64,000 nt of DNA, from contig OX597823.1 in the NCBI GenBank assembly GCA_951406725.2, positions 45,632,001 through 45,696,000 on the forward strand, in the 5' to 3' direction. The DNA comes from Octopus vulgaris (lineage: Eukaryota). Below are positions 8,781 to 57,270 of the stretch, piece by piece; the first letter of the stretch is position 1, and each line of letters starts with the position of its first letter. The notes beneath the pieces were generated by a model, which saw only the letters and a program-made list of their open reading frames with translations, was not told where the DNA came from and did no database searches. The position numbers and the translations under genes are program-made.

Positions 8781-9137
8781 TTGTATTTCGGGATGGTAAT
8801 TCTTTTTGCCAAATAAACACACGCGCTATATATTTTTTCTTTACTCGTTTATTAATGTTCTTGTTTTATTGTTTTAACTCATATCCATTGTCTGGAAATC
8901 TTTTATCGCACATCTGTGACCACTTCAGCAGCAGTTAGAAGAACAAAATGGAGTAAGTGGAGCAAGAAGACACACAAAAACGAAAAGTATCGCTGAAGAG
9001 GTCACAGATGTGTGACGAAAGATTTCCGGGCAATGGACGTGATGTAAATAAGGAGAGTAATAAACGGGTCAAGAAAAATATATAGTGCGTGTGTTTATTT
9101 GCCCCCCCCCCTCCAAAATGACCGTCCCGAAATACAA
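8781..9137. repeat. Fold-back element with hammerhead motifs at the inner ends of both arms
   Basis: Arms 8781-8931 and 8990-9137 are imperfect reverse complements, flanked by TA repeats. Confidence 0.85.
8990..9029 (+). ncRNA. Minimal hammerhead ribozyme
   Basis: tcg CTGAAGA G GTCACA-gatg-TGTGAC GAAA GATT TC cgg. A decayed antisense copy lies at 8892-8931. Confidence 0.7.
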
Positions 9138-9151
9138 CAAATTAATAAACT

Positions 9152-9282
9152 TATATATATATATATATATATATATATATATTTATATATATATATATAT
9201 TATATATATCTATATATATTTTATATATATATATATATATATATATATATATATATATATATATATATATATATATATATAT
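9152..9282. repeat. (TA)n microsatellite
   Basis: Direct reading. Confidence 0.97.
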
Positions 9283-10039
9283 AACATACTTGAAAGAAGA
9301 TGACGTGGGCGTTCGATCATATAATAACAATTTAATAGATAAAACATATGCATACATACATGCATATATGTACATACCTACATCTATATGTATATATACA
9401 TGCATATATGGGTACAGGACACTACAAATAAACGAAGAACACAACGAGAATCGAAAACATAAAAACAAAACAAGGAAACGGACTTTTTTTAACAACAAAA
9501 AAAACAGAGTACGAGACAACCAACACAAGGAACATTCCCCTTCTTCAGCTGCCCCTCTTTCGACTCATTGCGTGTTTCACACAGATATATTACTATAGAC
9601 ACATTATATATATTATATTGGGCTGCTTTGGAACTCAGATTTGTGCCCCTTTGAAAAGTTAAACTATTGTAATATCTATTCTTTTCAAGTCAATTCGCAA
9701 CAGAAAAAGAAAAGCTATGTGTTTAATACGGCAATAAGAGTAGTCTCCCTTGCACCAATTTATAGTTGGATTCCACGTAAGTTTCTAAGACACAACAAAC
9801 AATTTTCGGTTTTTGGAAAATGAGATTTGTCAATCACTGTACATATATATTTTTCCGCTGTCTACATTAGTGGTGCAGTCATTTGGGAAATTATAAGTTT
9901 CAAAGTAGAAAACAATAACAACGAAAACAAACAAAGGAAAACAAATGACAACATACAACCAATTAGAAAAATAGCGAAAATTTGCATAACGTCTTAAGGA
10001 CACGCACACCGAAGACACCCGCATATATACTTATTAAGT

Positions 10040-10250
10040 TTTTTTTACTTGTTTCAGTCATTAAACTGCGGTCATGCCGGGCCATCACCTTGAATTTTTA
10101 GTTGAATGAATTGACCCCAGCACTTCTTTTTCAAGCCTGATACTTATTCTATAACATCATTTTGCCGAACCGCTGGTTTACTTGGAAGCAAACATACCAA
10201 CACTTATTGTCAAGCGATGGTGCTTGGACAAACATAGATACAAAGGCACA
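10040..10250 (-). mobile_element. SINE family A, 3' half
   Basis: Reverse complement of the family A tail, degenerate. Confidence 0.75.
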
Positions 10251-10447
10251 TCCTTGTTGCTTATTTTGATTATATATATATATTATATATATATATATAT
10301 ATATATATATATATATATATATATATATATATATATATATATATATATATATATATATATATATATATATTTGTGTGTGTGTGTGTGTGTGTGTGTGTGT
10401 GTGTATATATATATGTATATATATAGACATATACATATATATATATA

Positions 10448-55444: not shown

Positions 55445-55970
55445 ACACCTTATGGCTCCATTCATCTTCCCACACAGCTTCAGACACAAAACAGAGACCT
55501 AAATCAAGTACCTGAAGGCGATAGTGCTGCCCTGGTGAACAAGGTGGCTGCTGGAAGACCCTAAGTCTAGGAACAATTCTCTGCATCATGTCACAAAAGG
55601 AGAACCCAGTCATGACCGTCAGACAATTTCTCCCTTAACATCTGGCCACCTAACTCCTCAGACTGCGATCCCCTTGATTATTATGTGTGGAGCGCAGCTG
55701 AGTGAGAGACCGATAAAACTTGTAACATCAAAGATGAACTGAAAGCAAGGATTAAGGCAGCATTCACCGTCCAGAAAGAAGAGTTGCAGGAGATTCCGAA
55801 GTCGTCTGGAGGCTGTTGCTGAAACCAATGGCTATTTTATCGAATAAATTTACTCTTTAGTATTTCAAGATATTTTTATCTAATTTTGGTAAATATATCT
55901 GTTAAAATGAGATGTCAGTGTTATTTTCATTTTTGCGTAATTTAGACGACAATTTATTTCGGGCACCCTG
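55445..55970 (+). mobile_element. Tc1/mariner (maT-like) 3' relic
   Basis: WPPNSSDCDPLDYYVWS, CRRFRSRLEAV and a CACCCTG terminus. Confidence 0.75.
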
Positions 55971-56171
55971 CATATATATATATGTATATATATATATATA
56001 TATATATATATTTTTTTTTTTCAGTAAAAACAATTAAGATTCAAGTGAGTTCCAATGAATTCACATGAATGCGGTACTTAACTTAGATGCACCAGAAATC
56101 TATATGGTATTAACCATAAAATAAATGTGGGGTGATTATAAACAAGAAAAAAGCAACAAGACTGGATTAGT

Positions 56172-56264
56172 TGTTCAGTACAATTGTTTCATACGAAGAA
56201 CAGCTATATTAAAAGCTGCAAATATTGCAGCAAATACAAGTGTCCCGTATTCATCAGCCAAAAC
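56172..56264 (-). ncRNA. Hammerhead ribozyme, intact core
   Basis: Reverse-complement copy of 56751-56843. Confidence 0.88.
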
Positions 56265-56750
56265 ACATATGAGTTTTCCAAACATCCTAGGGGGTGAGGC
56301 TACACTCATGAAGTATCGAAGAGAGTTCTATGAAAAGCAAAGTTAGATTGTAAGCAGACTTCAAAAGTTCTCAAATGATGCACAATTTTATAAAAGGTTT
56401 TTAAAAAAGGTTTTTAAAAAGTTTGTTAGCTTCACAGAAAAGGTAAATCCATCCATAATAATGCAGGTATAATTTCCGGAGATATGAGGAAATATTTCAT
56501 ACTCAGAGACGATGAATGTATCCATAATAATGTAGATGTAATTTCCTGATATATGAGATGTTGATCACACTTCTATTCGTTTCACAAAACTACTTTTTTA
56601 AAAACCTTTTTTAAAAACCTTTTATATAACTGTGCATCATTTGAGAACTTTTGAAGTCTGCTTACAATCTAACTTTGCTTTTCATAGAACTCTCTTCGAT
56701 ACTTCATGAGTGTAGCCTCATCCCTTGGGATGTTTGGAAAACTCATATGT

Positions 56751-56843
56751 GTTTTGGCTGATGAATACGGGACACTTGTATTTGCTGCAATATTTGCAGC
56801 TTTTAATAAAGCTGTTCTTCGTATGAAACAATTGTACTGAACA
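56751..56843 (+). ncRNA. Hammerhead ribozyme, intact core
   Basis: gttttgg CTGATGA atacg..(branched stem II)..cgtat GAAA CAATTG TA ctgaac. Confidence 0.88.
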
Positions 56844-57270
56844 ACTAATCCATTCTTGTTGCTTTTTTCTTGTGTATATATATATTTACATATAAATACA
56901 TATATAAATACGCTAAATACATATATATATATATATATATATATATATATATATATATATATATATATATATATATATATACATATATATATATATATCT
57001 TCATAAAAATATATGTATGTTTAAACGTATAAACATAGATAAATACATACATATATCACACACATGCACACACATATGTTGCGTATGCATGACAAGTATC
57101 AAATTATATTAGAACTCATTATAGTTGTTTATTGCGTTAAACCTCTATTAACATGCTAAGTGCACATATAGAATGTTGTATAAACAATAAAATGAGACAT
57201 AAAGCAGGTAGAAAGCAAACTGCATTTGAATGGAGCGCAGAAAATGATATCCGTGGTATCAGAAAAGCGT

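What the first reader, a model, noticed from the sequence alone, without database searches (positions are those of the whole stretch)
8781..56878. A recurring fold-back + tail + hammerhead architecture across several sequence families
At least eight inverted-repeat units occur in 64 kb (8781, 10448, 31250, 45462, 49030, 51269, 53833, 56010), most of them in TA microsatellites. Most have one arm extended by an unpaired tail. Where ribozyme motifs are present they point outward. Only the 10448 unit continues into an RT ORF, which links the architecture to PLEs. Inference: the others are minimal products of PLE reverse transcription with snap-back or template switching, and may be an abundant, poorly catalogued class of non-autonomous ribozyme-bearing elements.
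Basis: partly seen in the sequence, partly recalled or inferred. Interest (0 to 1): 0.72.

Follow-up and report, generated by a model that had tools for sequence, protein, structure and literature searches.

The report
Back-to-back Penelope stumps, one tail each
The eight fold-back repeats are real; they are worn end-pieces of eight Penelope-type mobile-element families inserted back to back, a known design, and the extra tail sits on one arm only, likely because the element's enzyme starts two DNA copies, one from each strand of the cut site.

Summary
All eight inverted repeats exist. Each belongs to a different multi-copy family of this 2.8-Gb genome. Other copies share the outer 3' ends but stop at very different 5' points. 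In four families (10448, 31250, 53833, 56010) longer copies run into a Penelope GIY-YIG endonuclease, so these units are 5'-truncated copies of coding elements, not a separate non-autonomous class. All eight families carry a minimal hammerhead motif or a core variant; six window units retain it, pointing outward; cleavage is untested. Only 51269 looks non-autonomous (458-nt unit, head-to-tail in 9 of 20 loci, retrozyme-like); 8781, 45462 and 49030 were not linked to an ORF. Inverted copy, one-sided tail, TA targets and hammerheads are all published PLE traits. One addition: of 76 classifiable back-to-back units, 74 have exactly one tail, none two, and 38 have it on the shorter arm. Simple snap-back cannot give that; two cDNAs primed on opposite target strands likely do. 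The scan reported the same pattern on other DNA of this genome (unreviewed notes). MITE reading rejected.

The parts
8781..9140 (.). Head-to-head pair of truncated pLTR ends, family U8781 (inverted arm 8781-8929, sense arm 8935-9140); no tail on either arm; 3' end homologous to U53833
8990..9029 (+). Minimal type I hammerhead motif, core CUGAAGA, 6-bp stem II, 3-bp stem I
10449..10754 (.). Inverted short arm (10449-10545) joined to a 5'-truncated pLTR (10532-10754) of PLE family U10448
10550..10588 (+). Hammerhead-like motif with U3/A8 core (UUGAAAA), 7-bp stem I, 1-bp stem II, U at the cleavage position
   Evidence: core in 18 of 19 matched copies, 25 examined
10755..13490 (+). Decayed PLE ORF (N-terminal part and RT with DKG motif, up to RT motif 5); RT fragment 12885-13364 hits Pfam RVT_1 below its cut-off
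31238..31701 (.). Family U31250 unit: 12-nt TSD (31238-31249, 31690-31701), tail 31250-31310, arm 31311-31449 (-), spacer, arm 31558-31691 (+); U3/A8 hammerhead-like motif in both arms (31438-, 31565+)
45147..45459 (+). Separate PLE-type 3' end (family U45290) with a hammerhead motif whose GAAA is mutated here; the 45462 unit abuts its TA end
45462..45713 (.). Family U45462 unit: hairpin 45462-45597 with apex 12-20 nt downstream of the family's hammerhead cut site, tail about 45598-45713
48994..49490 (.). Family U49030 unit: tail 48994-49100, arm 49101-49246 (-), arm 49273-49490 (+); hammerhead-like core CUGAAGU with long stem II at 49276+
50980..51875 (.). Family U51269 (458-nt non-coding tandem unit): tail 50980-51044 and 51235-51268 split by a later repeat insertion, long arm 51269-51696 (-), short arm 51701-51875 (+); hammerhead-like motif at 51492- with stem I lost in this copy
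53837..54063 (.). Family U53833 unit: short arm 53837-53887 (-), long arm 53886-54008 (+), tail 54009-54063; truncated 5 nt downstream of the family's hammerhead cut site; (TA)n on both sides
56020..56878 (.). Family U56010 (Hydra-type endonuclease in longer copies): tail 56020-56136, long arm 56137-56594 (-), short arm 56599-56878 (+); hammerhead motif CUGAUGA...GAAA/GUA in both arms (56257-, 56758+)
15254..15399 (-). Further truncated copy of the U10448 3' end beside (TA)n

Best explanation
The eight units are back-to-back pairs of 5'-truncated 3' ends of eight Penelope-like element (PLE) families, likely made when the PLE enzyme cuts both strands of an AT-rich target and starts one cDNA from each strand at two fixed start sites, after which the two unfinished cDNAs would join. 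Shown: family membership, two fixed 3' ends per family (the tail is the stretch between them), variable 5' ends, endonuclease upstream in four families, hammerhead motifs, 7-16-nt target duplications, exactly one tail per pair. Inferred: two-strand priming and joining by microhomology, ribozyme cleavage, and that U51269 is a non-coding passenger moved by PLE enzymes. Confidence about 0.9 for PLE origin, about 0.55 for two-strand priming.
For: Each unit is a multi-copy family (first-look candidates 92 to 3629 per query, lower bounds). Longer copies run, in sense, into a C-terminal GIY-YIG-type endonuclease for U10448, U53833, U56010 and U31250 (Pfam GIY-YIG E 5e-4 for U10448, below the curated cut-off). 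5' ends range from -1855 to +73 nt around the predicted ribozyme cut while 3' ends fall at two sites. Adjacent inverted copies occur in 4 of 24, 6 of 24, 11 of 29 and 15 of 52 sampled copies of four families queried with mostly one-arm matches. Of 113 head-to-head units in six families, 76 had both outer ends assignable: 74 one tail (36 on the longer arm, 38 on the shorter), 0 two tails, 2 none. Two units have a short arm made of tail sequence only (L247, L269). Non-simple direct repeats of 7-16 nt flank 20 of 76 units; (TA)n lies at one or both ends of 49 of 76. Arms of one unit share family variants more than arms of different units (permutation p <= 0.003 in all six families) yet differ by 3-14%, so they are old genomic copies from one source, not read artefacts. 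In vitro, a PLE protein cuts and extends both strands and starts at two sites that bracket the tail (PMC11167929).
Against: No ORF was reached for U8781, U45462, U49030 or U51269 within 1.5 kb flanks; their PLE status rests on the hammerhead, tail, target pattern and, for U8781, 3'-end homology to U53833. 37 of 113 units had an unassignable end and were left out; five of the six families were sampled partly or wholly with tail-bearing queries, which under-samples tailless pairs. The window's own 8781 unit has no tail. PMC11167929 found no difference in start site between strands in vitro, which would predict some two-tailed pairs. The tailless end is TA-like in most families, which also fits endonuclease trimming. 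Monomer folding does not favour the hammerhead shape for most motifs (z -2.65 to +1.53), and the Rfam scan listed no hammerhead among the 150 of 178 hits shown.
Confidence: 0.8

Rival explanations
1. Same PLE origin, but the palindrome forms first by self-priming as a two-tailed intermediate, and the endonuclease then trims one tail at its TA-like site during integration.
For: Self-priming was proposed for head-to-head PLE repeats (PMC3846280, passages) and endonuclease-mediated resolution for the tail (PMC8557442, passages). The tailless end is TA-rich in most families. Shared variants between arms fit one template.
Against: If the first cDNA is attached to the target, fold-back cannot put a tail on the shorter arm only; 25 units show this with a difference of 20 nt or more (hand count). 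The model needs a free intermediate trimmed at either end equally. PMC11167929 maps both tail ends to RT start sites in vitro.
Confidence: 0.25
2. The units are a class of non-autonomous fold-back elements that move as whole palindromes.
For: The U53833 junction recurs in 4 of 18 inverted units, and U45462 and U31250 junctions cluster. U51269 is a non-coding tandem unit.
Against: The recurring U53833 junction occurs with the tail on either arm (L001, L011 against L005, L006), so it arose more than once; most junctions differ between copies; four families extend into coding sequence. The queries themselves favour copies with the same junction.
Confidence: 0.1
3. The arms are terminal inverted repeats of DNA transposons (MITEs).
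For: U45462 looked like a fixed 150-nt hairpin when searched with the hairpin itself.
Against: A one-arm query showed 29 copies with variable 5' ends, 18 without an adjacent inverted copy, and an upstream hammerhead in 9 of 30 loci. Flanking duplications vary from 7 to 16 nt.
Confidence: 0.02

Closest known systems
Insertion units of endonuclease-positive PLEs with an inverted 5'-truncated copy and optional tail (PMC8557442 Fig. 2 legend; Adineta Pen2a, PMC3846280)
   Same: Inverted truncated copy next to the 5' end, tail at one end only and at either end, (TA)n targets, TSDs of about 8-10 nt.
   Different: Tails here are 55-123 nt in six families against 30-40 bp in print; most units here have lost the whole ORF; the exactly-one-tail count was not found in my searches.
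Poseidon of Anolis carolinensis in vitro (PMC11167929)
   Same: Two 3' ends bracketing a tail downstream of a hammerhead; AT-rich target.
   Different: That study does not treat inverted copies and saw no strand bias of start sites; in Poseidon the hammerhead overlaps the ORF start, whereas here it lies in long 3' UTRs.
Minimal type I hammerheads of PLEs, including the U3-A8 core of Schistosoma Cercyon (PMC4209133)
   Same: Short stem I, palindromic stem III, extra base before stem II, paired motifs on opposite strands 100-700 bp apart, U3-A8 variant (U10448, U31250).
   Different: U at the cleavage position in three families, A9 replaced by C (U53833) or U (U49030), and stem II inserts of about 60 nt (U56010, U49030); activity untested.
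Hydra clade PLEs (PMC8557442 section 11)
   Same: U56010 endonuclease has the CxCX5C linker, CxxC before the conserved E, no CCHH, a canonical hammerhead core and (TA)n targets.
   Different: RT motifs (DKT, RWK) were not reached; 3' UTR is about 1.4 kb.
Metazoan non-LTR retrozymes (PMC7229834; bioRxiv 10.64898/2026.07.22.740005)
   Same: U51269 is a non-coding hammerhead-bearing unit in head-to-tail repeats.
   Different: 458 nt (above the 170-400 nt range), partial tandems up to about two units only, with PLE-style inverted arm and tail; circular RNA not tested.

Membership tests
EN+ Penelope-like elements | C-terminal GIY-YIG endonuclease upstream of the 3' end | tested here: met
   Met for U10448, U31250, U53833, U56010 in other genomic copies; Pfam hits are weak, motifs read by eye.
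EN+ Penelope-like elements | Same feature for U8781, U45462, U49030, U51269 | tested here: inconclusive
   No collinear endonuclease in 1.5-kb flanks of the fetched loci.
EN+ Penelope-like elements | PLE-type reverse transcriptase (DKG motif) | tested here: met
   U10448 only: decayed RT at 12590-13490. No tree was built.
EN+ Penelope-like elements | Fixed 3' ends, variable 5' truncation, inverted copy, optional tail | tested here: met
EN+ Penelope-like elements | Minimal type I hammerhead motif near the 3' end | tested here: met
   Motif or core variant in all eight families; family-specific patterns written after inspection.
EN+ Penelope-like elements | Variable-length TSD / (TA)n target | tested here: met
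   20 of 76 units with non-simple 7-16-nt duplication; 49 of 76 beside (TA)n.
Hammerhead ribozyme | Self-cleavage | not testable with these tools
   Needs in vitro assay of dimeric constructs.
Hydra clade (U56010) | CxCX5C linker, CxxC motif, no CCHH | tested here: met
   against PMC8557442 section 11
Hydra clade (U56010) | DKT and RWK motifs in RT; phylogenetic placement | not tested
   RT lies beyond the fetched flanks.
Non-LTR retrozyme (U51269) | Non-coding hammerhead unit in head-to-tail repeats | tested here: met
   458-nt unit, tandem junction in 9 of 20 loci; motif in 19 of 20.
Non-LTR retrozyme (U51269) | Two consecutive complete hammerheads; circular RNA expression | tested here: inconclusive
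   Upstream partial units start at position 271-411, at or after the motif (cut at 280), so no locus showed two whole motifs in tandem; RNA not examined.
MITE / TIR DNA transposon | Both ends fixed, symmetrical TIRs, constant short TSD | tested here: not met

The most novel reading that the evidence does not exclude
Every back-to-back PLE insertion records a two-strand priming event: a dimeric PLE protein primes one cDNA at the outer start site on one target strand and one at the inner start site on the other, which explains inverted pLTRs and the one-sided tail together and replaces the self-priming model; the same machinery carries a 458-nt retrozyme-like RNA (U51269).
Probability: 0.5. Interest if true: 0.55.

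Novelty: new member of a known kind. Interest (0 to 1): 0.3.

Why it matters
As an annotation it is ordinary: such fold-backs are PLE debris that repeat pipelines can mistake for MITEs or miRNA hairpins. The useful part is mechanistic. How PLEs form inverted repeats and tails is open in the papers read, and the one-tail rule (74 of 76, either arm) is a genomic constraint that can be tested in the existing in vitro PLE system.

Tried and rejected
Rfam scan at E <= 1: only microsatellite and hairpin miRNA matches among the 150 of 178 rows shown, no hammerhead. A strict CUGANGA descriptor found one good motif only; variants and long stems II were missed until copies were compared. Idea that fold-back points mark the ribozyme cut site: rejected as a rule, since junctions spread over hundreds of nt, though U53833 (+5) and U45462 (+10 to +32) cluster just downstream. 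MITE reading of 45462: rejected. Sequencing or assembly artefact: rejected by 3-14% arm divergence and TSDs. Arm-variant test could not separate one RNA from two RNAs of one source. Run search for 56010-56880: no RNA holder listed; no reads were laid. Other local inverted repeats near 43047-44126, 49587-50517 and 59012-61515 look like opposed copies of abundant repeats (SINE-like, name recalled); only 43047-44126 was read. No phylogeny, covariance model or genome-wide census was made. Paper supplements were not opened; they may list these cephalopod families.

Full report
Observation. The window is G000:C10:45632001-45696000 in a 2.8-Gb genome; the octopus attribution is recalled from its repeats and from earlier notes, not tested. 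Self-BLAST confirms local inverted repeats at all eight places. Seven have a TA run at one or both ends. The 31250 unit has a 12-nt duplication at both ends instead. Six units have a one-sided tail, 10448 runs on into a decayed RT ORF, and 8781 has none.

Families. Each unit was searched against the genome; only the best 40 candidates are scored per search and I held 20-30 loci of each. First-look candidates were 3629 (8781), 1279 (10448), 1380 (31250), 1677 (45462), 960 (49030), 1492 (51269), 92 (53833) and 2562 (56010); these are not copy numbers. Mapped on one long natural copy per family, copies end at one of two fixed 3' positions and begin at scattered 5' positions, from -1855 to +73 relative to the predicted ribozyme cut. 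An adjacent inverted copy was found in 4 of 24 (U10448), 6 of 24 (U56010), 11 of 29 (U45462) and 15 of 52 (U31250) copies; the higher rates in U53833 (18 of 29) and U49030 (24 of 42) are inflated by palindromic queries.

Link to PLEs. Upstream of the arm, longer copies encode a C-terminal GIY-YIG-type endonuclease: U10448 (L198, L201, L206; CxxC linker and CCHH pattern; Pfam GIY-YIG E 5e-4, below cut-off), U53833 (L002, L004), U31250 (L291, L293, L298; 57% identical to U53833) and U56010 (L110, L112, L113, L114, L116). The U56010 protein has the CxCX5C linker and CxxC motif given for the Hydra clade (PMC8557442 section 11). U8781 shares its 3' end and tail with U53833. No ORF was reached for U8781, U45462, U49030 or U51269. 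U51269 is a 458-nt unit with a head-to-tail junction in 9 of 20 loci; it is the one family that behaves as a non-coding passenger.

Ribozyme motifs. With family-specific patterns written after inspection: CUGAAGA core in 13 of 15 matched U8781 copies (23 examined); CUGAUGA in 18 of 20 U56010 (25 examined) and 6 of 9 U45462 (30 examined); CUGAGGA in 15 of 19 U51269 (20 examined); CUGAUGC in 11 of 12 U53833 (30 examined); CUGAAGU in 11 of 15 U49030 (28 examined); UUGAAAA in 18 of 19 U10448 (25 examined) and in 16 of 17 and 26 of 26 U31250 (24 and 30 examined). The U3-A8 core is known from Schistosoma PLEs (PMC4209133). A relaxed descriptor gives 5 window hits, all in the units and pointing outward, against 0.125 in shuffles. 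Outward orientation follows from head-to-head joining. Monomer folds mostly do not show the hammerhead shape, as expected for motifs described as dimeric, and Rfam listed none. Cleavage is untested.

One-tail rule. In six families 113 head-to-head units were found; 37 had an end that could not be assigned and were set aside. Of the other 76, 74 have exactly one tail, none two, two none. With independent, equal choice of start site, one third of tailed pairs would have two tails (p about 1e-13 under that assumption). The tail is on the arm reaching further 5' in 36 and on the shorter arm in 38; in 25 of the 38 the difference is at least 20 nt (hand count), and two short arms are tail only. In U8781, searched without the tail, 11 of 12 assignable units have one tail. 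A cDNA that folds back on itself cannot give the second arm sequence that the first lacks. Arms of one unit share variants more than arms of different units, yet differ by 3-14%. Non-simple duplications of 7-16 nt flank 20 of 76 units and (TA)n lies beside 49 of 76 (a hand-picked set of inverted units).

Mechanism. Shown in vitro elsewhere: a PLE protein cuts and extends both target strands and starts at two RNA sites bracketing the tail (PMC11167929, parts 1-2 of 4 read). Inferred here: one start site is used on each strand, both cDNAs stop early, and they join through short microhomology (overlaps of 1-5 nt at many junctions). Against: that paper saw no strand difference in start sites. The rival is a self-primed two-tailed intermediate trimmed by the endonuclease (self-priming: PMC3846280 passages; resolution: PMC8557442 passages); it needs trimming at either end and is not excluded.

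Comparison with print. PMC8557442 (passages and section 11) describes the inverted truncated copy, a 30-40-bp tail at one end and at either end, and (TA)n targets. PMC4209133 (parts 1-2 of 4) describes paired minimal hammerheads on opposite strands. PMC7229834 (passages), PMC8969392 (passages) and bioRxiv 10.64898/2026.07.22.740005 (part 1 of 5) cover retrozymes as PLE-dependent elements. Searches showed no paper on octopus PLE hammerheads or on twin priming in PLEs; the library lacks most subscription papers, and supplements were not opened. Earlier unreviewed notes of this scan reached the same reading on other DNA of this genome; I saw them after my own counts and they are not independent support.

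Verdict. Observation confirmed; interpretation partly supported; new families of a known kind; interest 0.3. The one-tail rule and two-strand priming are the only part with research value.

Noticed in passing
window 45147-45459 +: A ninth PLE-type 3' end (3708 first-look candidates) with a conserved hammerhead in 19 of 23 copies; GAAA is mutated in the window copy, and the 45462 unit sits at its TA end.
   Followed up: partly
L002-L027 (U53833): Younger copies carry CUGAUGC (A9 to C) in 11 of 12 matched motifs, so the family may have spread with a dead ribozyme.
   Followed up: partly
window 10557+, 31438-, 31565+: Two unrelated PLE families share the U3/A8 core together with U at the cleavage position.
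   Followed up: partly
L001, L005, L006, L011, L014: The same fold-back junction (+5/+73) recurs with the tail on either arm; a short direct repeat flanks the ribozyme cut site there.
   Followed up: partly
window 4492-4722 +: Remnant of another Hydra-type endonuclease (tblastn E 5e-7), followed by an AT-rich 3' region.
   Followed up: no
window 51045-51234: An abundant repeat (SINE-like, name recalled) inserted into the 51269 tail with a duplication of about 12 nt.
   Followed up: partly
window 13500-15180: Decayed LINE-type RT fragment (Pfam RVT_1 E 0.026 at 14576-15106) replaces the 3' part of the 10448 element.
   Followed up: no
window 54598-55263 - and about 52000-53200 +: Mariner-type transposase remnants (Mos1 HTH E 6e-19 for the first; the second judged by eye).
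   Followed up: no
window 3731-4321 +: ORF with DUF7083 (E 8.5e-15).
   Followed up: no
window 46742-46791, 58432-58506, 25444-25477: Short near-perfect hairpins; 58432-58506 is two adjacent hairpins. Not assigned.
   Followed up: no
L253/L254, L255/L256, L273/L274, L026/L028: Near-identical locus pairs, pointing to segmental duplications or haplotype duplicates in the assembly.
   Followed up: no
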